From: a virus
Virus record (IMG/VR): IMGVR_UViG_3300027736_000034
Location: 23,101 to 87,100 of that record
Reading direction: 5' to 3' (one strand)
Length of the DNA stretch: 64,000 nt
Under the pieces are notes generated by a model. It had not been told where the DNA came from, ran no database searches, and worked only from the letters and a program-made list of their open reading frames with translations. This document shows, piece by piece, positions 5,705 to 19,525 of the stretch. Each line of letters starts with the position of its first letter. Position 1 is the stretch's first letter. Position numbers and translations under genes: made by a program.

Positions 5705-6196
5705 ATGTATGAATTTTTAAATGATAGTATTTTTTTAGAAAATAGAAAAAATAAAAAACATCATTTTTTTAAAAATGTTAATTTATGTCCGCCCACGTGG
5801 GATGATATAATAAAAGAACTAAACAACAGTGTTGTAGAGAAACGACACGTAAAGATATTATCTAATTCAGGATTTGTTTTCCACCAAGGAAAAAATGTTC
5901 CCGGGATTTCTGAATTATGTGAGAAAATATCGTGCTTAGATAAATCAGTATCCTGCACTGCACATTGTTATATTTCTTTCTTAGAAACAGCAGGCACGTT
6001 TGGTACACATAAAGATACAGCCGATGTTTTATTCTGGCAAATGATTGGAAAAACAAAATGGATCATTAATGATAATGTTACTGTAACGTATGAATTAGAA
6101 CCAAATGATTTTATATATGTACCAAGAAAAATGTATCATACAGTAATACCGCTAACACCTAGGGCAGGAATGTCATTTGGGTTAGATTATAACTGA
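5705..6196 (+). CDS. Cupin/JmjC-like oxygenase
   Basis: FGTHKDTADVLFWQMIGKTKW...LEPNDFIYVPRKMYH. Confidence 0.75.
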   Translation: MYEFLNDSIFLENRKNKKHHFFKNVNLCPPTWDDIIKELNNSVVEKRHVKILSNSGFVFHQGKNVPGISELCEKISCLDKSVSCTAHCYISFLETAGTFGTHKDTADVLFWQMIGKTKWIINDNVTVTYELEPNDFIYVPRKMYHTVIPLTPRAGMSFGLDYN

Positions 6197-6253: not shown

Positions 6254-6341
6254 GCGACTGTGGCGGAATTAGGTAGACGCCTCAGACTTAAAATCTGATG
6301 TCCGTAAGGGCGTACCGGTTCGATCCCGGTCAGTCGTACCA
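6254..6341 (+). tRNA. tRNA-Leu(TAA)
   Basis: GCGACTG/CAGTCGT+ACCA; TCAGA-CTTAAAA-TCTGA; long V-arm; TTGACA-17-TATAAT promoter at 6212-6240. Confidence 0.92.
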
Positions 6342-6363
6342 AATAATAAAAATAAAACATTAA

Positions 6364-6984
6364 ATGTCAGATTTTGTAGTAGTTGATAATTTTTTTCATA
6401 AGTTTGAAGTCCATGGACTGAGTAAACTTATATTTAACAACGGAGAAATAAATTGGAAATACGGCTATAAAACCACATATAATAGCGACACTAATGCATC
6501 CTTAAAGGAAATAGAAAGACTATTTATAAAAAATGATAGTAATATAAATGTAGAAAATGACAGAATGCTTACTCACCCGTTAATACTACACAACACTGTA
6601 GTTAGTGATATGTATAATAAATTTGCTAATATTAAGCCACTCATTGAGAGTAAATTTGAAGTGAATATAAAATACATTCAAGAAATGAAAATAAATTTTT
6701 CATTGCCCGGAGAAATAAAGCCTGATCAATATTTAATGCCTCATTATGATAATCATAAATTGGGTTCAAAAACTATGATTTTATATATGAATGATTGTGA
6801 AGGAGATACTATTTTGTTTAATGAGTATTATGAAGGTTATCATAATACAGATAAAAAAACAATCTATAAAAGATACTCTCCAAAAATAAATAAAGCAATT
6901 ATGTTTGATGCTAGAAGGTATCATTCTAATTCATTTTCTACTAAAAATATTAGAGCAGTAATTGTTGCTAATATTATAATATAG
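6364..6984 (+). CDS. 2OG-Fe(II) oxygenase
   Basis: PHYD...ILYMND..GDT...FDARRYH...RAVI. Confidence 0.75.
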   Translation: MSDFVVVDNFFHKFEVHGLSKLIFNNGEINWKYGYKTTYNSDTNASLKEIERLFIKNDSNINVENDRMLTHPLILHNTVVSDMYNKFANIKPLIESKFEVNIKYIQEMKINFSLPGEIKPDQYLMPHYDNHKLGSKTMILYMNDCEGDTILFNEYYEGYHNTDKKTIYKRYSPKINKAIMFDARRYHSNSFSTKNIRAVIVANIII

Positions 6985-7236: not shown

Positions 7237-7323
7237 GGAGAGTGGGCTGGATGGTAAGGCATCGGATTGCTAATCCGACGCTCAGAAATGGGCGAGTGGG
7301 TTCGACTCCCACACTCTCCGCCA
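7237..7323 (+). tRNA. tRNA-Ser(GCT)
   Basis: GGAGAGT/ACTCTCC+GCCA; TCGGA-TTGCTAA-TCCGA; long V-arm. Confidence 0.9.
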
Positions 7324-7353
7324 AGAGTATGTAATTTTTAATAAGGAAATAAA

Positions 7354-7518
7354 ATGAAACCAGGTAAAACTTTTAAACTATCTAAACGTAACAAGACAAT
7401 GACAGCATTGTTTAGTTTTGTTGATAAGGATCAACGTAGTGCATTTAAGAATATGATGATCCAAGCACAACTTGCAGGTGAAGTTAAGGTAGTTAGAGAC
7501 AAATCTGATCGTAAGTAA
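7354..7518 (+). CDS. Small basic hypothetical protein (54 aa, MKPGKTFKLSKR...)
   Basis: AAGGA RBS; not in the ORF track; fills the gap between two tRNAs. Confidence 0.65.
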   Translation: MKPGKTFKLSKRNKTMTALFSFVDKDQRSAFKNMMIQAQLAGEVKVVRDKSDRK

Positions 7519-7522
7519 TAGT

Positions 7523-7600
7523 GTGGGGATGGCAGAGCGGCCCAATGCAACAGTCTGCAAAACTGTAAATCCGCGAGTTCAAATCTCGCTCCCCACTCCA
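7523..7600 (+). tRNA. tRNA-Cys(GCA)
   Basis: GTGGGGA/TCCCCAC+TCCA; ACAGT-CTGCAAA-ACTGT. Confidence 0.9.
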
Positions 7601-7608
7601 AATAAAGG

Positions 7609-7637
7609 TTGACAACAAACCTAAAATGTTGTATAAT
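7609..7637 (+). promoter_or_regulatory. sigma70-type promoter
   Basis: TTGACA-17-TATAAT. Confidence 0.8.
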
Positions 7638-7752
7638 AGATTTTTTAAACGAAAGAGGTAATGACATGAAACGTGCTAAACGATAGTGTCATTCTTAAAC
7701 CCCATGTATTGGTTTAGGGATGGCACATTAAAGAAAATTTAATACTGCTTAT

Positions 7753-7826
7753 CCCTCATAAACATTAAGGTGATGTAACCGGCTCTTAACCGGTAAAACA
7801 CGGATCGTTACCGTGATGTGGGACCA
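7753..7826 (+). tRNA. tRNA-Lys(CTT), atypical D and T loops
   Basis: CCCTCAT/ATGTGGG+ACCA; ACCGG-CTCTTAA-CCGGT; T-loop ATCGTTA. Confidence 0.75.
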
Positions 7827-7832
7827 ATATAT

Positions 7833-7906
7833 GGGGCTATAATTCAAAGGTAGAATAGTCGGCTTTTAACCGATCTATCCGAGTTCGAATCTCGGTGGCC
7901 CTACCA
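7833..7906 (+). tRNA. tRNA-Lys(TTT)
   Basis: GGGGCTA/TGGCCCT+ACCA; GTCGG-CTTTTAA-CCGAT. Confidence 0.9.
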
Positions 7907-7983
7907 TATAAAAACATATTGTCTGCGTAAACCGTGGATCCGTAGTAGATAGTGTGTTTCTATATGGTAATAAATAAAGAATA

Positions 7984-8328
7984 ATGGAAGAAATGTATAT
8001 GATTGAAAATAGACGAGGACGGCTAAGATACTATCTTAGAGATGCTAAACTAAGGGCTAAGAAAAAATCATTACCCTTTGACTTAGATTTAAATTTTTTA
8101 GATTCTATCGCCACTGACAAATGCCCAATTTTTGGGACGCCATTTATTTTTGGAGAAGCAAATAAGTTGTCGCCTACTTCTCCGTCTTTAGATAGAATTA
8201 TTCCATCTAAGGGTTATGTTAAGGACAATGTTGTTTTTATTAGTCATAGGGCAAATACAATAAAGCATAATGTAGTTGGGCCGGATGACTTATATAAAGT
8301 AGCCGATTGGTTACGTAGTAAAATATAG
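7984..8328 (+). CDS. HNH-like phage endonuclease
   Basis: CPIFG...SPSLDRIIPSKGYVKDNVVFISHRANTIK. Confidence 0.65.
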   Translation: MEEMYMIENRRGRLRYYLRDAKLRAKKKSLPFDLDLNFLDSIATDKCPIFGTPFIFGEANKLSPTSPSLDRIIPSKGYVKDNVVFISHRANTIKHNVVGPDDLYKVADWLRSKI

Positions 8329-8334
8329 AATAAT

Positions 8335-8421
8335 GGAAGATAGGCTGCATGGCGCGGACACGGTCTTGAAAACCGTCCCACTGTTTACACGGTGACAGTT
8401 CGATTCTGTTATCTTCCTCCA
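8335..8421 (+). tRNA. tRNA-Ser(TGA)
   Basis: GGAAGAT/ATCTTCC+TCCA; ACGGT-CTTGAAA-ACCGT; long V-arm. Confidence 0.85.
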
Positions 8422-8426
8422 AGTTA

Positions 8427-8489
8427 AGGATCGGTTCAGCAAATAAATACATTCAACTTTTAATTGAAACCGTAAAAAACGATCCTGTT
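8427..8489 (+). ncRNA. Y-RNA-like CAGCAA-motif RNA, copy A (Lys anticodon stem-loop cargo)
   Basis: AGGATCG/CGATCCT+GTT stem, CAGCAA, internal TTCAA-CTTTTAA-TTGAA. Confidence 0.7.
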
Positions 8490-8509
8490 ATATCTAGTGT
8501 AAATAGACA

Positions 8510-9121
8510 ATGAATCATATTGACAAATTAAAAAGTAAACTTGACTCTGTTAAAACAACAGAAAGAATTTTACCCACCCATGAAATAGAACAAAAATATA
8601 TAGATAAAATATATGAATTGGATTTATCTTCTGAAATAGATTCAGATACAATTGTAAATTTAATTTATAAGTTCAAAGAACAATATCCAATATCAAATAC
8701 ATCAAATCTTTTTTCTTGGCATAGTAATTATGATACTCATAGAAAAACATCAGATTTTAACACATTGATAAATGTAATAGAGAATAAATTAAAGTTAATT
8801 GAGACTAATGATAGAGATGGAGCTGTAAATAAAGTTTTAGATAGTTGGGTGGCAATATATAATAAAACAGAATATGCACAATGGCATAGCCATTCAGATA
8901 ATAGTGGTAGTAGATGGTCAGTGGTTTATTATGCAAAAGCAGAAGAAAATTGTGCTCCTATAGTTTTTAAAGATTTAGAAATAGTGCCTAAAACAAATAT
9001 GTTATTAGTATTTCCTTCCCGAGCCTATCATATGGTAAGAAAATCACAATCTGATATAGAAAGAATAATCTTTGCAGCAAACCTAGATATAGTTTATATA
9101 AAAAATAAAATATCTCCCTAA
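8510..9121 (+). CDS. 2OG-Fe(II) oxygenase (TIGR02466-like)
   Basis: SWVAIY...WHSH...WSVVYY...LVFPSRAYHMV...RIIFAAN. Confidence 0.8.
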   Translation: MNHIDKLKSKLDSVKTTERILPTHEIEQKYIDKIYELDLSSEIDSDTIVNLIYKFKEQYPISNTSNLFSWHSNYDTHRKTSDFNTLINVIENKLKLIETNDRDGAVNKVLDSWVAIYNKTEYAQWHSHSDNSGSRWSVVYYAKAEENCAPIVFKDLEIVPKTNMLLVFPSRAYHMVRKSQSDIERIIFAANLDIVYIKNKISP

Positions 9122-9185
9122 TGTAATGGCAGCATACCGGTCTCCAAAACCGTTAGTCAAGGTTCGAGTCCTTGGGGGGATGCCA
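9112..9185 (+). tRNA. tRNA-Trp(CCA)
   Basis: ATCTCCC/GGGGGAT+GCCA; CCGGT-CTCCAAA-ACCGT; overlaps the last codons of the upstream gene. Confidence 0.88.
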
Positions 9186-9199
9186 ACTAAATAGAATGT

Positions 9200-9820
9200 A
9201 TGTTCTACTATCAAACCAATTTTGATTTTTCACTTGCTTCTAAACAATATATAAAAAATATATATAAGCATAAGTTTAATCAAAATTACTATCATGACCT
9301 TGAATCAGAAAAACTGATATCACCTATCAGCCCGCCGGGTAGAGAAATAGTTAAGTTTCTATCAAAATATAATCTTAATATTATCTATCAAGGGATAATA
9401 GCATTCACTAGTAATAGTGATACTTGGTTTGAAGGTAATCCGCATGTTGATATAATGCGAATTAATAATGAACAAGTTCCAATAAGAACAAGATTCAATG
9501 TAATGATCGAGGGTAATATTGATGATACTATGTATTGGTGGAAAGATATTAGTTGGGGAAGCGAGCAATTAGTACAAAATAAATTTACACTTAAATCAGG
9601 TAGTACTTATGATTCATATAGTATCCCTGGTAATAGTACAAAAGAAAGATGGGATTATATGGGTGAGCCATCTGATAAAAAAGAAAGACTATTAAGCCCA
9701 AGTGCATTTGTAAGAACAGATTGCACACATACAGTAAATGTTTCCTCTGGTCCAAGACTAATAATCTCTGTAGCTTTTGCTGAAACATTTGATGATATAG
9801 TTAGTAGATTAAATAATTAA
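9200..9820 (+). CDS. Hypothetical protein, possible oxygenase fold
   Basis: PHVD...HTV...RLIIS pattern. Confidence 0.55.
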   Translation: MFYYQTNFDFSLASKQYIKNIYKHKFNQNYYHDLESEKLISPISPPGREIVKFLSKYNLNIIYQGIIAFTSNSDTWFEGNPHVDIMRINNEQVPIRTRFNVMIEGNIDDTMYWWKDISWGSEQLVQNKFTLKSGSTYDSYSIPGNSTKERWDYMGEPSDKKERLLSPSAFVRTDCTHTVNVSSGPRLIISVAFAETFDDIVSRLNN

Positions 9821-9822
9821 CT

Positions 9823-9907
9823 GCCCTGGTGGCGAAATTGGTAGACGCACCAGATTTAGGTTCTGGCGCCGAAAGGCGTGTCGGTTCGAGTCCGACCTAG
9901 GGCACCA
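9823..9907 (+). tRNA. tRNA-Leu(TAG)
   Basis: GCCCTGG/CTAGGGC+ACCA; CCAGA-TTTAGGT-TCTGG; long V-arm. Confidence 0.92.
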
Positions 9908-9965
9908 CAAAAACTCGCCTTGACTGATGGCGTATAATGAGATAAGTAATCAGTCAATAAATTTC

Positions 9966-10039
9966 GGGGGATTGATGTAATGGTAGCCTGGGACCTTTGC
10001 AAGGTTTTCGCAACAGTTCGATTCTGTTATCCTCCACCA
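9966..10039 (+). tRNA. tRNA-Ala(TGC)
   Basis: GGGGGAT/ATCCTCC+ACCA with G3.U70; GGACC-TTTGCAA-GGTTT. Confidence 0.88.
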
Positions 10040-10044
10040 ACTTT

Positions 10045-10159
10045 AGGATACTAACAGCAACATTTAACATTCCAAACTTTGGGTTGTGGGTTCAAGTCCC
10101 ATCAGTAGCAATACTGTAGATCAATGGTAGATCAAAAGTCGTTAAAAATGTATCCTGTT
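10045..10159 (+). ncRNA. Y-RNA-like CAGCAA-motif RNA, copy B (circularly permuted tRNA domain, YrlA-like)
   Basis: AGGATAC/GTATCCT+GTT, CAGCAA; then T-arm GTGGG-TTCAAGT-CCCAT, CAGTA-GCAA-TACTG, D-arm GATC-AATGGTA-GATC, closed by ACTTT/AAAGT. Confidence 0.8.
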
Positions 10160-10165
10160 AAATAT

Positions 10166-10242
10166 GCGTGATTAGTTCAGCATGGAAGAACGCTACCCCG
10201 ACACGGTAGAGGTCAAAAGTTCAAATCTTTTATCACGCACCA
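10166..10242 (+). tRNA. tRNA-Val(GAC) with C33
   Basis: GCGTGAT/ATCACGC+ACCA; CTACC-CCGACAC-GGTAG. Confidence 0.85.
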
Positions 10243-10261
10243 TGAATACGATAAATAATTA

Positions 10262-10337
10262 CGCGGGAAGGGCCCGGTCACCGGCGAGGTCTCATAAGCC
10301 TTTGCAATCCTTGGTTCAAATCCAAGTCCCGCATCCA
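10262..10337 (+). tRNA. Initiator-like tRNA-fMet(CAT), divergent
   Basis: CGCGGGA/TCCCGCA (C1xA72)+TCCA; GAGGT-CTCATAA-GCCTT; irregular D-arm. Confidence 0.7.
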
Positions 10338-15011: not shown

Positions 15012-16703
15012 ATGACACATTATTTGATAGATTTTAAAGACGATGCTTCAGATGAAGATATTCAGGAGTATTTAATCTCCTACCATTGCACGGTACTAGG
15101 GAAATTTGATAACCTTAATAAGGTGTATCATGTAGAAGCCAGTACGGAACCCCCTTCGTTTGAATCTATAGTTGAATTGGTACAAAATGATGATGAAACG
15201 GCAATTAACTTATTAGAAATTAAACCATTGTATAATTTTATGACTTCAACTGAATCAACTACAACAGTACATTCGGATGAAAAAAATTGGTGGAAAGTGT
15301 ATTCTATTGAAAACATAGATTTGTCAACAGATTCGTCAACTGTCCCTGTTTTTGGGGAAAGCATTGATGTTTATGTTGTTGATTCCGGCATAGATATTTC
15401 ACATGAAGAATTTGTCGGCAAAGATATAACGTTGTTGCATTCAATAATTCCAAATGATTTTAATGATTATACTGGACACGGTACTGCTCTTTCAAGTGTG
15501 ATATTAGGAAATACATGCGGAATTACAGATTGTAGTATTAAAGTTGTAAAAGTACTTAATGATGAGGGTACACCTACTAAACATAGTGATTTGCTATATG
15601 CGTTTGATGCAATAATAAATTCTATAGGTGAATCAGGGGCAAATCTTTCGGTTATCAATATAAGTTGGGCTATTCCTAAAAACACATATGTTGAAAATAA
15701 AATAAAACATTTATTAACTGCCGGTGCTGCTGTAGTAGTCGCAGCAGGTAACTCCGGTGTTCCCATAGAAAATGTAACACCTGCTTCAATGCCAAACGTG
15801 ATTACCGTTGGTGCATATCAAGAAGATTTTATGCCTTGTGATTTTTCTGATTATACTGATCCCGGTATCACAAGTCTAACATCAAATGTAGTTAATAGTG
15901 GGGCGTTAGATATTTGGGCACCAGGAAATAAAATTTATGCTGCCAAAGCAGGTGGAGGATATGGATTTGTAAGTGGTACTAGTATAGCAGCAGCAATACA
16001 GTCCGCATCAATTGCGTACTATGTCGGCCAACTACAACAGCAACATGCTAATATGTTAGATATTTATTCTAATCCGGATAATGGAATGTTTATTCCAGCC
16101 ATGGTAAATTTTGGTAGAGCAGGATTACTTGATTTGTCTGATTCTAAATATAGTAGTTCAGTTAATGCAATCACTACTTTTAGAAATTGGGAAAATTACA
16201 ATAAATCTATGACTAGTTATATTAATGGAAATTTTGATCAACTACAAAAACCTCAGAGTTTTGTACAAGTTACCAATCAACCTGAGGCTTTCTATTTTGC
16301 AAAACCTTTAGCCAGAGCATACGAATTGAAATCTCCTTTACCCGAAGGAGTATCTATAAATGGACATTTAATTCATATGAATATGAAAACTGAACCAGCA
16401 TCAGATCACGATACATATGAAATACCAGTTACCTTTTATCCTGCAGATGAATCACTATCCCCAATAGAAACAACTTTTACAATTGTACATTTACCGTCAA
16501 CTTTTGACGCTACGCTGCTAACAGCAGATGATCCAATATTAAAATTGATGTCATTCACAACCTGCTATCAACAACTAGTTCGTGAATGTGTTACAAGTTG
16601 TGGAAAATATAGGCTTCCCTGTGACACAGCCGCAGGCAGCAAATCCTGCTGGTGTCCGCCGATTCCGCCCCAATACTTTACTTATTTTTTCAATACTTTT
16701 TAG
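15012..16703 (+). CDS. Subtilisin-like S8 serine protease
   Basis: VVDSG, HGT, AAGN and GTS catalytic motifs; prodomain; Cys-rich tail. Confidence 0.9.
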   Translation: MTHYLIDFKDDASDEDIQEYLISYHCTVLGKFDNLNKVYHVEASTEPPSFESIVELVQNDDETAINLLEIKPLYNFMTSTESTTTVHSDEKNWWKVYSIENIDLSTDSSTVPVFGESIDVYVVDSGIDISHEEFVGKDITLLHSIIPNDFNDYTGHGTALSSVILGNTCGITDCSIKVVKVLNDEGTPTKHSDLLYAFDAIINSIGESGANLSVINISWAIPKNTYVENKIKHLLTAGAAVVVAAGNSGVPIENVTPASMPNVITVGAYQEDFMPCDFSDYTDPGITSLTSNVVNSGALDIWAPGNKIYAAKAGGGYGFVSGTSIAAAIQSASIAYYVGQLQQQHANMLDIYSNPDNGMFIPAMVNFGRAGLLDLSDSKYSSSVNAITTFRNWENYNKSMTSYINGNFDQLQKPQSFVQVTNQPEAFYFAKPLARAYELKSPLPEGVSINGHLIHMNMKTEPASDHDTYEIPVTFYPADESLSPIETTFTIVHLPSTFDATLLTADDPILKLMSFTTCYQQLVRECVTSCGKYRLPCDTAAGSKSCWCPPIPPQYFTYFFNTF

Positions 16704-16707
16704 TAAA

Positions 16708-17568
16708 ATGATAGAAATAAAAAATAACAAGCATCTTTGTATAATTTTTCAACCAAGATCAGGATCACATGTATTACGTTATTACTTGAGCAATATATTA
16801 AATCGACATAATTTAACCGAGTGGTTCAATCCCGGGATAATTCCCCCGGATGTAATAGTTGATATTGAACATGCAATAGTACATAAAAATGGAACTCCGG
16901 CTATAGCTTCCGAATTAATTTATAAAAAGGATAACCTTGAGGAACAAAAATCTATATTTTTAAGTCGTATAGATACCTTAAATAATCTCTCTAAAATCAA
17001 TCAATATTCGGTAATGTCTATGTATACAGAACCATATGTAGTATTGGATAAAACTTGGTTGAAAATAGCAGCCGAACAAGAAAACATACAATTTATTTCT
17101 TTAGAAAGAGCCGACGTGCTATATTCTATGATTTCGTTAATAGTTGCTGTGCGTAGTAAAGTTTGGCATAACCATGAAACTGTTTTATTTAGTAGAAATT
17201 TGAATAAATTTAATATTGATATTAATAAAATGAAACACGCCTTGGATATGTATATCAAAAAAACAGATATACAGAATGAATATTTTGGTGATTTGAAAAC
17301 AATATATTATGAACAATTTCAATATAAAATTACTAATATTTCCAAACTATTCAACGTACCAAACAAGATAATATCTATTCCGTATAGCAAATTTCAAGGT
17401 AATCATAAAAATTTGATATCTAATATAGATGAAATAGAAGATTATTATGAAGAATTTGTTAACAAACATCCAGATTACTTCCCGCAATATTTTGATAAAC
17501 TTACTCACATAAACATACCCGCCAATCAAGGTAGGCAACCAGAAATACTGTTACCCGAATACAGTTGA
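16708..17568 (+). CDS. Sulfotransferase-like protein (Stf0-like)
   Basis: QPRSGS PAPS-binding loop; LER...S; IYYE. Confidence 0.6.
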   Translation: MIEIKNNKHLCIIFQPRSGSHVLRYYLSNILNRHNLTEWFNPGIIPPDVIVDIEHAIVHKNGTPAIASELIYKKDNLEEQKSIFLSRIDTLNNLSKINQYSVMSMYTEPYVVLDKTWLKIAAEQENIQFISLERADVLYSMISLIVAVRSKVWHNHETVLFSRNLNKFNIDINKMKHALDMYIKKTDIQNEYFGDLKTIYYEQFQYKITNISKLFNVPNKIISIPYSKFQGNHKNLISNIDEIEDYYEEFVNKHPDYFPQYFDKLTHINIPANQGRQPEILLPEYS

Positions 17569-17593
17569 CTTATAACCAATTCTGCTGTATAAT
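17565..17593 (+). promoter_or_regulatory. sigma70-type promoter for rpoZ
   Basis: TTGACT-17-TATAAT. Confidence 0.7.
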
Positions 17594-17616
17594 AACATCT
17601 TTAACTAGGAGATATT

Positions 17617-17835
17617 ATGTCTGAAAGCAGAGCAAGATACACTAGCCAAGAGGCTGTAGAGATGATTGGTAATCGTTTTGAAATGGTTCTAATCGCTTGT
17701 GCTAGGGTTAGGGAACTCAAGCGCGGACACAAGTCTAAACTAGATAAACCTACTAGTGCAGGACCATCAGTAGTTGCATTAATGGAAATTGAAAAGGGCC
17801 TAGTCGGCCGTGAATATCTTAAACAATTAAGATAA
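17617..17835 (+). CDS. rpoZ: RNA polymerase omega subunit
   Basis: ARYT...[20 protein letters not shown]...[10 protein letters not shown]; AGGAG RBS. Confidence 0.85.
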
Positions 17836-17898
17836 TTTACCCAAAATACATATACAACAACTGGATGTTGTTGTATAATACACGTATTGAAAGATTAA

Positions 17899-18011
17899 AG
17901 GATCGGTTCAGCAATTTAACCATTACTGGATGATGGGCAAAGATAACTTCAAGCCTATCAAGGTGAGTTTGGATTTCTCACTTGAATAAAAAAGTACAAA
18001 ACGATCCTGTT
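17899..18011 (+). ncRNA. Y-RNA-like CAGCAA-motif RNA, copy C
   Basis: AGGATCGGTTCAGCAA...AAAACGATCCTGTT, ends identical to copy A; three internal hairpins. Confidence 0.7.
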
Positions 18012-18020
18012 TTTTATATT

Positions 18021-18079
18021 AGGGTGCTTCCAGCAAATTTAAAAACTTTACTTGAAATCAAGCAAAACAGCACCCTGTT
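18021..18079 (+). ncRNA. Y-RNA-like CAGCAA-motif RNA, copy D
   Basis: AGGGTGCT/AGCACCCT+GTT, CAGCAA; compensatory stem changes relative to A-C. Confidence 0.7.
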
Positions 18080-18109: not shown

Positions 18110-19525
18110 ATGCAATTCGCAAACGCAATACTAAACCAAGAGGCTCGTACCACTAATGGTATGAAGGCTCGTGAATCAACCGCTAACGCATGTGTTGATT
18201 TGTTCTATAACATCGGTGCAAGCCGTGGTAAGAACATCATCCCGCAATTCACAGCGGCTTATGTAGAAAATGCAGACCTAGCATTACGTATCGTCCAATG
18301 GGCACGTGATGTTCGTGGTGGTGCGGGTGAACGTGAATTGTTCCGTCAAGTCATGTTGCACTTGGAAAAGACTAACCCAGCTGATGCTGCTCGTCTTATG
18401 TCTAAGGTACCAGAACTTGGTCGTTTTGACGATTTGCTAGTTTTTCAAACTAAGGATATGAAGGCTAAGGCTTACACATTGCTTGGTGACTACTTGCGTC
18501 AAAATAACGGACTCGCTGCTAAGTGGACTCCGCGTAAGGGCAAGATCGCGGCTGAAATTCGTGACTTCTACGGTATGACTCCAAAGCAATATCGTAAGAC
18601 TCTTGTTGGTATGACTACTGTTGTTGAAACACAAATGTGTTCTAATGACTGGGATAACATCAACTACAGTCACGTTCCATCTGTAGCGCATAGTCGTTAC
18701 AAGAAGGCTTTCGGTCGTCATGGTACAACTTATGCTGAGTACATCACTAAGTTGGTTAAGGGTGAAGCAGGTGTGAAGATCAATGCTAACGCAATCTTCC
18801 CGCACGATGTGTTGAAGGGTCGTATCAGTGGATACGGTGCTACAACTTGGTCTAAGACTGAGTTGGATGCTATTGAAGCACAATGGAATGCATTGCCTAA
18901 CTACGTTGGTGACTCAAGCGTGTTGCCTCTAGTTGACGTTAGTGGCTCTATGACCTGCATTGCAGGGAAGAAGGGTTCTACTACTTGCCTAGAAATCGCA
19001 GTTAGCTTGGGATTGTATTTTGCTGATAAGAACAAGGGTAAGTTCAAGGACTGCTTCTTGACTTTCAGCGACAAGCCAAAGTTGTTGAACCTTAAGGGTT
19101 CAATCAACCAAAAGATTGACCAAATGGTCAGTTCTGATTGGGGTATGAGTACAAACCTACATGGTGCGTTCAATCAAATCCTTGACACTGCTGTTAAGAA
19201 CAAGGTATCACAAGCAGAAATGCCTGAAACTTTGATGATTTTCAGCGACATGCAATTTAACGCCTGCGTTAAGTATGATGACAGTGCAATGGAAATGATC
19301 GCACGTAAGTACGCCGAAGCAGGTTACGATTTGCCTAAGGTAGTTTTCTGGAACTTGAATGCTAGCGGAAACGCTCCAGTTGAGTTTGACAAGGGTGGTA
19401 CCGCTCTTGTGTCAGGATTCAGCCCAGCAATCGCTGCTAGCGTATTGGGTGCAGACCCAGATGCATTCTCGCCTGAAGCAATTATGCTTAAGGCCGTGAT
19501 GAATAGTCGCTACGATTTGGCGTAA
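18110..19525 (+). CDS. Ro60/TROVE-like protein with C-terminal vWA domain (DUF2828-like)
   Basis: T.NG, RDVRGGAGER, GRFDDL, AAKW.PR in the helical part; MIDAS DVSGSM; FSDMQF; FWNL; SGFS. Confidence 0.8.
   Translation: MQFANAILNQEARTTNGMKARESTANACVDLFYNIGASRGKNIIPQFTAAYVENADLALRIVQWARDVRGGAGERELFRQVMLHLEKTNPADAARLMSKVPELGRFDDLLVFQTKDMKAKAYTLLGDYLRQNNGLAAKWTPRKGKIAAEIRDFYGMTPKQYRKTLVGMTTVVETQMCSNDWDNINYSHVPSVAHSRYKKAFGRHGTTYAEYITKLVKGEAGVKINANAIFPHDVLKGRISGYGATTWSKTELDAIEAQWNALPNYVGDSSVLPLVDVSGSMTCIAGKKGSTTCLEIAVSLGLYFADKNKGKFKDCFLTFSDKPKLLNLKGSINQKIDQMVSSDWGMSTNLHGAFNQILDTAVKNKVSQAEMPETLMIFSDMQFNACVKYDDSAMEMIARKYAEAGYDLPKVVFWNLNASGNAPVEFDKGGTALVSGFSPAIAASVLGADPDAFSPEAIMLKAVMNSRYDLA

What the first reader, a model, noticed from the sequence alone, without database searches (positions are those of the whole stretch)
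8427..8489. Free tRNA-Lys(UUU) anticodon stem-loop displayed on CAGCAA RNA copy A: possible anticodon-nuclease decoy
Seen: the only internal hairpin is a perfect 5-bp stem with a 7-nt loop, TTCAA-CTTTTAA-TTGAA. The loop is identical to the anticodon loop of tRNA-Lys(TTT) at 7833. Copy D can be drawn as CTTTA-CTTGAAA-TCAAG (one mismatch), whose loop matches tRNA-Ser(TGA) at 8335, though an alternative fold is possible. Known: tRNA-Lys(UUU) is the target of the anti-phage anticodon nuclease PrrC. Inference: these RNAs are anticodon decoys or baits held by the Ro-like protein.
Basis: partly seen in the sequence, partly recalled or inferred. Interest (0 to 1): 0.78.

Follow-up and report, generated by a model that had tools for sequence, protein, structure and literature searches.

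The report
Anticodon-arm mimic on phage Y-like RNA
A giant lake phage encodes a small RNA that carries only the anticodon hairpin of lysine tRNA on a conserved handle shared with partner RNAs of the phage's Ro60-like protein; it is probably a bait for proteins that read or cut tRNA anticodons, but that role is untested.

Summary
Window 8427-8489 is a 63-nt RNA gene 5 nt after tRNA-Ser. It has a 7-bp closing stem, an unpaired CAGCAA box and one inner hairpin (5 bp, 7-nt loop CTTTTAA). The loop equals the anticodon loop of the phage's own tRNA-Lys(UUU).

It is not a chance AT-rich hairpin. An IMG/VR scan that left the loop and two stem pairs free gave 87 unique homologs. All 87 keep the two free pairs Watson-Crick, in four stem versions. 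All 87 loops read C-U-N-N-U-A-A: UUU 55, UCU 26, UGU 4, GCU 2. Covariation supports both helices.

Across the wider handle family, anticodon-like 5-6 bp/7-nt hairpins far exceed shuffles. About a third of those loops are not anticodon-like.

ORF 18110-19525 (DUF2828+DUF7788) folds as Ro60. Copy B scores as YrlA.

So this is a Y-RNA-like partner RNA with an anticodon-arm cargo: a new variant of a known kind. I found no paper describing it. The decoy role against anticodon nucleases is plausible but untested.

This scan has noted the same design on other DNA (70 notes, at least 57 genomes).

The parts
7609..7637 (+). Sigma-70-type promoter-like site (TTGACA-17-TATAAT, 12 of 12) upstream of tRNA-Lys(ctt), tRNA-Lys(ttt), tRNA-Ser and copy A. 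No terminator-like site lies in 7300-10300.
   Evidence: a consensus match only, not evidence of function
7833..7906 (+). tRNA-Lys(ttt). Its anticodon loop CTTTTAA at 7863-7869 is the loop copied by the RNA.
8335..8421 (+). tRNA-Ser(tga), ending 5 nt before copy A. Its loop CTTGAAA is the one on copy D.
8427..8433 (+). 5' strand of the closing (handle) stem, AGGATCG
   Evidence: Five of 7 pairs show double changes in 77 homologs.
8437..8442 (+). Unpaired CAGCAA box. It is the presumed docking motif for the Ro-like protein and sits where the YrlA model has its conserved CgaAUGC.
   Evidence: C, G, C and last A invariant in A2. Binding is inferred.
8448..8450 (+). UAC, which pairs with GUA 8472-8474 (short helix under the hairpin)
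   Evidence: It never varies, partly because the search pattern fixed it.
8452..8468 (+). Anticodon-arm mimic: 5-bp stem TTCAA/TTGAA and 7-nt loop CTTTTAA (8457-8463). The 'anticodon' UUU lies at 8459-8461.
8472..8474 (+). GUA, partner of UAC 8448-8450
8480..8486 (+). 3' strand of the closing stem, CGATCCT
8487..8489 (+). Conserved single-stranded GTT tail
10045..10159 (+). Copy B: same handle (AGGATAC/GTATCCT), cargo is a tRNA-like T-arm plus D-arm domain (YrlA type)
   Evidence: RF02553 43.7 bits, E 3.9e-7 over 12 kb, full model, below the gathering score of 69
17899..18011 (+). Copy C: same handle as A, 87-nt cargo of unknown kind
18021..18079 (+). Copy D: handle AGGGTGC/GCACCCT, cargo hairpin with the Ser(UGA)-type loop CTTGAAA. 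It ends 30 nt before the Ro-like gene.
18110..19525 (+). Ro60-like protein gene (471 aa): DUF2828 + DUF7788, a HEAT-repeat ring plus a vWA domain with a MIDAS DxSxS motif

Best explanation
Window 8427-8489 encodes a short Y-RNA-like noncoding RNA.

Shown:
- It is one of five RNAs in this phage fragment that share a handle: a covarying closing stem, an unpaired CAGCAA box, an A-rich 3' side and a GUU tail.
- Two of the five lie directly in front of the gene for a protein that folds like Ro60.
- One of the five has a YrlA-type tRNA-elbow cargo.
- The cargo of this copy is built and conserved like a tRNA anticodon arm. It has a 5-bp stem and a 7-nt loop with C32, U33, U36, A37 and A38 fixed. Only 'anticodon' positions 34-35 vary among homologs.

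Inferred:
- The RNA is cut out of the tRNA-array transcript by the tRNA-processing enzymes.
- Its handle docks on the Ro-like ring, which stabilises it.
- The exposed anticodon arm acts as a bait for proteins that recognise anticodon loops.
- The most likely targets are host anticodon nucleases of anti-phage defence. These would be soaked up or competitively inhibited, sparing the real tRNA-Lys.
- Related phages carry panels of such baits: Lys, Arg, Thr, Ser, Tyr, Asn and Met types.
For: Handle family:
- Five copies with compensatory stems AGGATCG/CGATCCT, AGGATAC/GTATCCT, AGGATAGC/GCTATCCT and GGGTGC/GCACCC.
- In 80 loci oriented on the Ro-like gene, plus the own record, 200 of 202 pattern hits lie on the gene's strand.

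Ro-like protein:
- The AF2 model has pLDDT 91.4. The 12 PDB matches listed at E below 0.001 (13 counted) are all Ro60/TROVE structures over the full length, with E 6e-9 to 5.5e-6 and TM 0.42-0.60. They include the Ro60 of Thermus phage phiLo.
- Copy B matches Rfam YrlA end to end.

Anticodon-arm cargo:
- A scan with loop and stem positions left free gave 87 unique contexts. Loops were CTTTTAA 55, CTTCTAA 26, CTTGTAA 4 and CTGCTAA 2. The free stem pairs were TG/CA 45, AG/CT 30, GA/TC 7 and CA/TG 5, all 87 Watson-Crick.
- On 77 aligned homologs, 98.2% of cells pair and 7 of 12 pairs show double changes. The covariation score is 0.371 against 0.092 in shuffles (0 of 500 reach it). Slid registers give 25-48% paired.
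- RNAalifold finds the same helices unprompted.

Family-wide:
- Enrichment over shuffles is as given under the observation check.
- Over 55 distinct stem+loop combinations, position 33 is T in 49. Position 34 is A in only 1, although the unpaired flanks are 60% A. This resembles real anticodons.
- Where a locus also holds the tRNA with that anticodon, the two 7-nt loops are identical in 87 of 100 comparisons.
- 19 of 155 loci carry two or three different anticodon-type loops.

Portability:
- The same module sits on a different, CGAAUGC-type handle in L157 and L175.

Processing context:
- 297 of 648 family instances start within 10 nt of a same-strand tRNA 3' end. 246 are followed by a tRNA within 10 nt.
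- There is a consensus promoter and no terminator-like site nearby.

Literature context (passages seen):
- Phage Ro60 binds phage Y-like RNAs (PMC12135203).
- A Ro60-like protein of phage Bas63, next to its tRNA genes, counters a defence system (PMC11482910).
- Highly abundant RNAs lie upstream of an Rsr-like gene in a Listeria phage (PMC12282133).
- Anticodon-loop cleavage is described as a widespread defence (PMC7824862).
Against: - There is no direct evidence of binding to the Ro-like protein, of the RNA's ends, of modification, or of any contact with a nuclease.
- Copy A lies 9.6 kb from the Ro-like gene. Its link to the protein rests on the shared handle.
- The hairpin is thermodynamically weak.
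- The stem (all A-U but one pair) is unlike the tRNA-Lys anticodon stem. A nuclease that reads the stem, the elbow or base modifications might ignore it.
- The mimicry is not universal. In the unbiased set, 22 of 67 5-6 bp/7-nt loops are not Y-U-NNN-R. The other 97 of 164 short members have other loop sizes or stems.
- FelixO1 has the handle, but by eye no anticodon-like cargo.
- In the copy-A lineage the four anticodons all end in U36-A37. By recalled knowledge this is the class that receives t6A37, so a modification enzyme would fit as target at least as well as a nuclease.
- RNA-ligase repair genes, a usual mark of conflict over tRNA, are nearly absent: RtcB 0 of 5 records, PF09414 0 of 5, Rnl1 1 of 5.
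- Expression evidence is weak. One contig of an RNA library covers 8417-8493 of a relative, and DNA carry-over cannot be excluded.
Confidence: 0.42

Rival explanations
1. Adaptor, not decoy. The anticodon-arm mimic recruits a host or phage protein that handles anticodon loops, such as a modification enzyme (t6A37 or U34 pathways) or a synthetase anticodon-binding domain. It brings that protein to the Ro-like ring. This would parallel the way Y RNA tethers Ro60 to PNPase, and would serve tRNA quality control, decay or remodelling of the tRNA pool.
For: - Known Y RNAs act as tethers, and YrlA is itself modified by tRNA enzymes (PMC4201824, abstract and passages).
- Phage phiLo Ro60 and its Yrl RNAs bind host PNPase (PMC12135203).
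- The copy-A lineage fixes U36-A37-A38 and frees positions 34-35. This fits the recalled determinants of t6A37 formation better than a single-tRNA nuclease.
- Ser-type loops are common.
Against: - No candidate partner is encoded nearby. The neighbours are an HNH-type endonuclease and a 2OG-Fe(II) oxygenase.
- Panels of different anticodons in one phage and quick turnover of loops between close relatives look more like an arms race than a housekeeping tether.
Confidence: 0.25
2. Half of a split tRNA mimic. Copy A supplies the anticodon arm and a YrlA-type copy such as B supplies the elbow. Two handles on a Ro-like dimer would assemble a whole tRNA look-alike.
For: - B has T and D arms but no anticodon arm. 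A has only the anticodon arm.
- Both use the same handle.
- PDB 9l5y is titled a Ro60 dimer from a Thermus phage (PMC12135203 abstract).
Against: - Nothing in the sequences pairs A with B.
- Several anticodon-type RNAs can accompany one elbow-type RNA in a locus.
- This is pure inference.
Confidence: 0.07
3. A U-turn loop used for fast RNA-RNA pairing (antisense-style kissing loop) with some phage or host RNA. In this reading the likeness to anticodon loops follows from the shared U-turn geometry.
For: - T at loop position 2 is the strongest family-wide feature: 49 of 55.
- That includes loops that are otherwise not anticodon-like.
Against: - Avoidance of A at position 34 (1 of 55).
- Loops exactly equal to real tRNA loops: 42 of 67 against 0.09 expected.
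- Identity with the phage's own tRNA loop in 87 of 100 comparisons.
- None of these is needed for kissing.
- No complementary target was sought or seen.
Confidence: 0.08
4. No loop-specific function: a chance AT-rich hairpin or an inert relic of a tRNA ancestor that merely spaces the handle.
For: - AT-rich context, a weak fold and z = -0.85.
- Some relatives have other loop lengths and sequences.
Against: - Five of 7 loop positions are invariant in 87 unique homologs, while two stem pairs changed by double substitution into four versions.
- There is a large excess over shuffles.
Confidence: 0.04

Closest known systems
YrlA / YrlB Y RNAs bound by bacterial and phage Ro60 (Rsr); Rfam RF02553; Chen et al. 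2014, PMC4201824 (abstract and passages seen)
   Same: - Small RNAs encoded near, and on the strand of, a Ro60-type gene.
- The 5' and 3' ends form a closing stem with a short conserved motif on the 5' side.
- A variable distal module mimics part of a tRNA.
- There are several different RNAs per genome.
- Copy B of this phage aligns to the YrlA model end to end.
   Different: - The motif is CAGCAA, not GNCGAAN0-1G.
- The protein is the DUF2828/DUF7788 form, which Pfam TROVE does not detect.
- Copy A has no T or D arm and no Rfam match.
- Its cargo is the anticodon arm, the one tRNA part that YrlA replaces with the Ro-binding stem.
Deinococcus radiodurans Yrn1 modelled with a potential 'anticodon arm' (PMC4201824, passage seen)
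   Same: A Y RNA with a 5-bp stem placed like an anticodon arm.
   Different: In the paper's words, that loop has 6 nt rather than 7, and no anticodon-loop sequence is reported. Here the loop has 7 nt, is identical to real anticodon loops and is conserved as such.
Thermus phage phiLo Ro60 with Yrl1/Yrl2 (PMC12135203, abstract and passages seen; PDB 9kop, 9l5y among the best fold matches)
   Same: A phage Ro60-fold protein with phage-encoded Y-like RNAs next to its gene, proposed to counter host defence.
   Different: - Those RNAs carry a CGAA motif and are reported to bind PNPase.
- The word 'anticodon' does not occur in that paper.
Bas63 gp130, a Ro60-like protein that counters the ppl defence system (PhageMaP preprint, PMC11482910, passage seen)
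   Same: - A Ro60-like phage protein sits beside a tRNA gene array.
- The authors guess that some neighbouring 'tRNA genes' are Y RNAs.
- FelixO1, of genus Felixounavirus, has four CAGCAA-handle RNAs in that position. That Bas63 belongs to the same genus is recalled, not checked here.
   Different: - No RNA partner was identified there.
- By eye, the FelixO1 cargoes are not anticodon-like.
Phage-encoded tRNAs that escape or replace tRNAs cut by anticodon nucleases (title of van den Berg et al. 2023 seen in a reference list; T5 tRNA-Lys against PARIS is recalled, not checked)
   Same: A phage RNA answer to attack on anticodon loops. Lys(UUU) is prominent.
   Different: Those are working tRNAs. 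This RNA has no acceptor end and cannot decode.

Membership tests
Y RNA / YrlA-type Ro60 partner RNA | Encoded close to, and on the same strand as, a Ro60-type protein gene | tested here: met
   Copies C and D end 99 and 31 nt before ORF 18110-19525. Copy A is 9.6 kb upstream on the same strand. The ORF has the Ro60 fold. 200 of 202 family hits are on the gene's strand.
Y RNA / YrlA-type Ro60 partner RNA | The 5' and 3' ends pair into a closing stem supported by covariation | tested here: met
   In the outer helix, 5 of 7 pairs show double changes and 96.8% of cells pair. RNAalifold agrees.
Y RNA / YrlA-type Ro60 partner RNA | Conserved GNCGAAN0-1G / CGAA motif on the 5' side (PMC4201824; PMC12135203) | tested here: not met
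   The motif here is CAGCAA (C-N-G-C-A-A in A2). It occupies the same model positions as CgaAUGC in the YrlA alignment of copy B, so it is analogous rather than identical.
Y RNA / YrlA-type Ro60 partner RNA | tRNA-like T-arm/D-arm domain (YrlA) and a score above the Rfam gathering threshold | tested here: not met
   Copy A has no Rfam match at E up to 10. Copy B scores 43.7 bits against a gathering score of 69.
Y RNA / YrlA-type Ro60 partner RNA | Physically bound and stabilised by the Ro60-type protein | not testable with these tools
   Needs immunoprecipitation or in vitro binding.
tRNA anticodon stem-loop (as a mimic, not a tRNA) | 5-bp stem closing a 7-nt loop | tested here: met
   The inner helix pairs in 100% of cells in 77 homologs.
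tRNA anticodon stem-loop (as a mimic, not a tRNA) | Loop frame of pyrimidine-32, U33, purine-37 and A/C-38, with the variable positions confined to the anticodon | tested here: met
   All 87 unique homologs read C-U-N-N-U-A-A.
tRNA anticodon stem-loop (as a mimic, not a tRNA) | Loop sequence equals that of a real tRNA of the same phage | tested here: met
   It is identical to tRNA-Lys(ttt) of the window. Across loci, 87 of 100 comparisons are identical.
tRNA anticodon stem-loop (as a mimic, not a tRNA) | Anticodon-loop base modifications (position 34, position 37) | not testable with these tools
   Needs mass spectrometry or modification-sensitive sequencing.
tRNA gene | Cloverleaf with acceptor stem, D and T arms | tested here: not met
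   ARAGORN and Rfam find no tRNA at 8427-8489.
Anti-defence decoy of anticodon nucleases | Is bound or cut by, or inhibits, an anticodon nuclease, and protects the phage | not testable with these tools

The most novel reading that the evidence does not exclude
Large phages keep exchangeable panels of bare anticodon arms (Lys, Arg, Thr, Ser, Tyr, Asn, Met types). The arms are mounted on a common handle and held by a Ro60-like ring. This would be an RNA-based anti-defence system that baits and neutralises tRNA-cutting immune nucleases. The 'anticodon' positions would evolve in an arms race with host nuclease specificity.
Probability: 0.33. Interest if true: 0.9.

Novelty: new variant of a known kind. 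Interest (0 to 1): 0.7.

Why it matters
Ro60 and Y RNAs are conserved from bacteria to humans, yet what the variable Y RNA modules do is still largely open.

Here the module has a readable meaning. It is an anticodon arm whose identity changes between related phages. That gives a concrete, testable handle on Ro/Y function in phages. It also points to a possible RNA-decoy layer in the conflict over tRNAs between phages and bacterial defence nucleases.

The same handle occurs in culturable systems, so experiments are feasible:
- Synechococcus phage BUCT-ZZ01 on S. elongatus PCC 7942, which has a Lys-type hairpin.
- FelixO1-type phages of Salmonella and E. coli.

It also shows that the DUF2828/DUF7788 proteins, which number 6040 representative clusters and occur in 702 phage records, have a recognisable RNA partner signature.

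Tried and rejected
- Pfam TROVE (PF05731) against the whole 87-kb record found nothing. A sequence search of the ORF against PDB chains gave only a chance hit at E 0.3. The Ro relationship appeared only at the fold level.
- Rfam at E up to 10 found nothing on copies A and C. It gave only a chance-level hit (Dicty_Class_I_RNA, E 0.56) on copy D.
- The first loose pattern scan listed many false stems inside genes. I replaced it with a stricter rule.
- The 10-mer scan with 2 mismatches was uninformative.
- BLASTN of copy A against cultured phages gave two weak hits. One, BUCT-ZZ01, proved real on inspection. The other (phage NatCom_17901, inside a gene) was not followed.
- L157 and L175, which carry the module on another handle, contain no TROVE or DUF2828 gene in their partial records (52% and 21% complete), so nothing can be said about their protein partner.
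- RNA repair genes: RtcB 0 of 5 records, PF09414 0 of 5, PF09511 1 of 5. This gives no general link to ligase-based tRNA repair.
- Sequencing runs: DNA holders are freshwater and lake metagenomes. Four RNA-library runs were laid. Only contigs were available, so no ends, strand or level can be read. Parts without cover say nothing. Only one contig (X21) spans copy A of a relative, and two (X21, X23) span copy B.
- The DUF2828 literature search returned five papers, none on phages or RNA by their titles and abstract openings.
- Rows dropped: from alignment A2, 4 of the 87 unique contexts were skipped by name (L092 and L130 truncated; L157 and L175 on the other handle), and 6 more dropped out as duplicates after trimming, leaving 77. 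The 'unbiased' set leaves out the 106 of 270 short sequences that occur only in loci fetched by the loop-targeted scan.
- Paper supplements were not opened. Supplemental tables of PMC4201824 (phage YrlA list) and supplementary figures of PMC11482910 might show whether CAGCAA-type RNAs were already listed.
Full report
**What the window is.** The window is bases 23101-87100 of an 87.1-kb IMG/VR virus record that CheckV rates 24% complete. Relatives of its Ro-like gene lie on complete or near-complete 338-364 kb phage records. DNA runs that hold the stretch are freshwater and lake metagenomes. The first 13 kb of the window is a tRNA array. It has 26 tRNA genes in the window and 34 in the record.

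**The observation.** tRNA-Ser(tga) ends at 8421. From 8427, AGGATCG pairs with CGATCCT at 8480-8486. An unpaired CAGCAA follows at 8437-8442. The interior holds one hairpin: TTCAA (8452-8456), loop CTTTTAA (8457-8463) and TTGAA (8464-8468). The RNA ends in GTT. The loop is letter for letter the anticodon loop of tRNA-Lys(ttt) at 7863-7869. Folding energy alone is not remarkable (z = -0.85), so the case rests on comparison with relatives.

**A family with a shared handle.** The same frame occurs at 10045-10159 (B), 17899-18011 (C) and 18021-18079 (D). A fifth copy lies 1.2 kb before the window's start. The frame is a closing stem, 2-3 nt, CAGCAA, a variable interior, an A-rich stretch, the complementary strand, then GTT. 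The stems differ by compensatory changes. Copy B aligns over the whole Rfam YrlA model (43.7 bits, below the gathering score of 69), with a T arm and a D arm. In that alignment CAGCAAC sits where the model has its conserved CgaAUGC. Copies C and D stand directly before ORF 18110-19525.

**The protein.**
- Pfam gives DUF2828 + DUF7788 and PHROGs gives 'RNA-binding protein'. Pfam TROVE does not hit.
- An alignment of 74 family members shows an invariant D-x-S-x-S, a vWA MIDAS motif.
- The AlphaFold model (pLDDT 91.4, pTM 0.91) matches Ro60/TROVE structures over its full length in all 12 PDB matches listed at E below 0.001 (13 counted). These are Xenopus Ro, Deinococcus Rsr, human Ro60 and Thermus phage phiLo Ro60, with E from 6e-9 to 5.5e-6. 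Plain vWA domains follow only after these.
- The family is large: 6040 representative clusters at E up to 0.001 and 702 cultured-phage records. The latter include mycobacteriophage genes annotated 'Ro-like RNA binding protein', FelixO1, and Listeria, Staphylococcus and Vibrio phages.

**Is the hairpin conserved as an anticodon arm?** I scanned IMG/VR with the flanks of the module fixed but the 7 loop letters and two stem pairs left free.
- This gave 127 hits and 87 unique contexts.
- The loops were CTTTTAA (55), CTTCTAA (26), CTTGTAA (4) and CTGCTAA (2). Positions 32, 33, 36, 37 and 38 never change, and only 'anticodon' positions 34-35 vary (UUU, UCU, UGU, GCU).
- The two free stem pairs occur in four versions (TG/CA 45, AG/CT 30, GA/TC 7, CA/TG 5). 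All 87 are Watson-Crick.
- On an alignment of 77 of these, 98.2% of cells pair and 7 of 12 pairs show changes on both sides. The covariation score is 0.371 against 0.092 for shuffled partners (0 of 500 reach it). Sliding the partners by 1-3 columns drops pairing to 25-48%.
- RNAalifold predicts the same two helices plus a 3-bp UAC/GUA helix.
- Caveat: three of the five inner pairs, the 3-bp helix and the flanks were fixed by my search pattern. Only the outer stem, two inner pairs and the loop were free to vary.

**The wider family.** My finder recovered 648 family instances and 463 unique sequences from 295 sources. Of the unique sequences, 270 are short, with interiors of at most 45 nt.
- To avoid circularity I took the 164 short sequences that also occur outside the loop-scan loci.
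- Of these, 67 have a 5-6 bp stem with a 7-nt loop as their best hairpin (shuffles: mean 4.9, max 11).
- 45 of those loops are Y-U-NNN-R (shuffles: 0.31).
- 42 equal one of the 193 distinct anticodon loops of 3767 tRNAs predicted in the same DNA (shuffles: 0.09).
- Counting distinct loops only, 11 of 35 equal a real tRNA loop.
- Over 55 distinct stem+loop combinations, position 33 is T in 49. Position 34 is A in 1, although the unpaired flanks are 60% A. Position 38 is A or C in 50. This profile resembles that of the phages' real tRNAs.
- The types seen include Lys, Arg, Thr, Ser (UGA, GGA, GCU), Tyr, Asn, Met, Ile and Pro.
- Where the same locus holds the tRNA with that anticodon, the two loops are identical in 87 of 100 comparisons. 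In 61 cases the partial locus held no such tRNA.
- 19 of 155 loci have two or three different anticodon-type loops.
- These sequences are related, so the counts overstate the number of independent events.

**Results against a uniform picture.**
- 22 of the 67 hairpins have loops that are not anticodon-like, and 97 of the 164 short members have other geometries (4-, 8- and 9-nt loops are frequent).
- In the copy-D lineage, close relatives carry loops such as ATAATTC, ATCATTC and TTAAGTC.
- The fifth copy of this phage has ACGTTTA.
- FelixO1 has four CAGCAA-handle RNAs right after its Ro-like gene, but by eye no anticodon-like cargo.

Anticodon arms are thus one common cargo among several. The others include tRNA elbows and larger inserts of 90-250 nt.

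**Context and processing.**
- 297 of 648 instances begin within 10 nt of a same-strand tRNA 3' end, and 246 are followed by a tRNA within 10 nt.
- A perfect sigma-70 consensus lies at 7609-7637, and no terminator-like site lies between 7300 and 10300.
- I infer that the RNAs are released from tRNA-array transcripts by tRNA-processing enzymes.
- In one metatranscriptome-labelled run, a contig of a relative spans 8417-8493 and then joins to tRNA-Trp, skipping the oxygenase ORF. Contigs in two runs span copy B together with the flanking tRNAs. This shows presence in RNA libraries, not proven transcription.

**Portability.** In L157 and L175 the same extended module, with loop CTGCTAA, is mounted on another handle (closing stem, CGAAUGC, UGGG, UACAU). 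That handle is shared there with sub-threshold YrlA-type RNAs. The cargo therefore moves between handle types.

**Mechanism.**
- Shown: the RNA's architecture, its conservation as an anticodon-arm look-alike, its membership of a handle family linked to a Ro60-fold protein gene, and its embedding in tRNA arrays.
- Inferred: docking on the Ro-like ring, and the target of the bait.
- I rank the anticodon-nuclease decoy first (0.42). Three things favour it. Anticodon-loop cleavage is a widespread anti-phage measure (PMC7824862, passage). A Ro60-like phage protein has been reported to counter a defence system (PMC11482910, passage). And panels with fast-changing 'anticodons' suggest conflict.
- The adaptor reading, recruitment of anticodon-loop enzymes, is a serious rival (0.25). 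In the copy-A lineage all four anticodons end in U36 followed by A37-A38. By recalled knowledge this is the t6A37 class.

**Comparison with what is known.** Papers consulted by passages:
- PMC4201824 describes YrlA, phage YrlA and the GNCGAA motif. It models Yrn1 with a 6-nt 'anticodon' loop.
- PMC12135203 describes phiLo Ro60 with Yrl1/2. The word 'anticodon' occurs 0 times in it.
- PMC11482910 covers Bas63 gp130.
- PMC12282133 reports abundant RNAs upstream of an Rsr-like gene in a Listeria phage. The word 'anticodon' occurs 0 times in it.
- PMC7824862 mentions ROT/TROVE proteins in jumbo phages.

Full-text searches for YrlA with phage terms, for Ro60 with phage and anticodon, and for anticodon stem-loop with decoy found no description of anticodon-arm cargo or of the CAGCAA handle. 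The library lacks most subscription journals, and supplements were closed.

**Earlier notes of this scan.** Notes on this genome and on other genomes describe the same design and reach similar readings. I read them after forming my view. They are not independent evidence.

**Verdict.** This is a new variant of the Ro/Y-RNA kind, namely an anticodon-arm cargo on a CAGCAA handle for a DUF2828-type Ro-like protein. Its function is untested. Interest 0.7.

Noticed in passing
L157:7630-7735 (- strand); L175:1714-1810 (+): The same extended anticodon-arm module (loop CTGCTAA) sits on a different handle (stem + CGAATGC ... TGGG ... TACAT). L157 also has three sub-threshold YrlA hits. One further RNA on that handle (5861-6020, - strand) has a CTGTAAA loop ahead of a T/D-arm domain. 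Neither partial record holds a Ro-type gene.
   Followed up: partly
L296 (Salmonella phage FelixO1) about 5712-5782, 5876-5945, 6336-6405, 6418-6552: Four CAGCAA-handle RNAs (stem AGACCNN/NNGGTCT, tail GGT) lie inside the tRNA array just downstream of the Ro-like gene. The last has T and D arms. None is annotated in the record.
   Followed up: partly
L295 (Synechococcus phage BUCT-ZZ01) about 2308-2490, 2491-2556, 2558-2640: Three handle RNAs lie upstream of the Ro-like gene of a cultured cyanophage of S. elongatus PCC 7942. The middle one has TTCAA-CTTTTAC-TTGAA, and the third uses CAGCAT with a GC-rich tetraloop hairpin.
   Followed up: partly
window 8493-9128: A contig in an RNA-library run joins 8493 to 9128. 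A relative therefore lacks the 2OG-Fe(II) oxygenase ORF (8510-9121), and copy A there is followed almost directly by tRNA-Trp.
   Followed up: no
window 7984-8328: An HNH / endonuclease VII-like ORF (PHROG endonuclease families) sits between tRNA-Lys(ttt) and tRNA-Ser. It is likely a free-standing homing endonuclease in the tRNA array.
   Followed up: no
window 17617-17835: A 72-aa ORF with an RNA_pol_Rpb6 (omega-like) domain (E 2.5e-9) lies just upstream of copy C. TTGACT-17-TATAAT-like sites at about 17566-17594, and a TATAAT at 17874-17879, precede it and copy C.
   Followed up: no
G004 (record of L042) 112748-113308: An Rnl1-type RNA ligase (PF09511, E 3.6e-14) lies about 2.4 kb upstream of the Ro-like gene on the same strand. 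It is present in only 1 of 5 records searched.
   Followed up: no
L016:4748-4976; also L058, L060, L067, L070, L074: A recurring element of about 220 nt begins TTTGTAAG..CAGCAAGAG, holds a T-arm-like GGGTTCGA and ends CTTACAAATTCA. My loose pattern scan picked it up. It is probably another structured RNA of these phages and is unidentified.
   Followed up: no
window 15012-16703: A 563-aa ORF has a subtilase (Peptidase_S8) domain, plus a weak match to the T4 y05I-like N-terminal domain.
   Followed up: no
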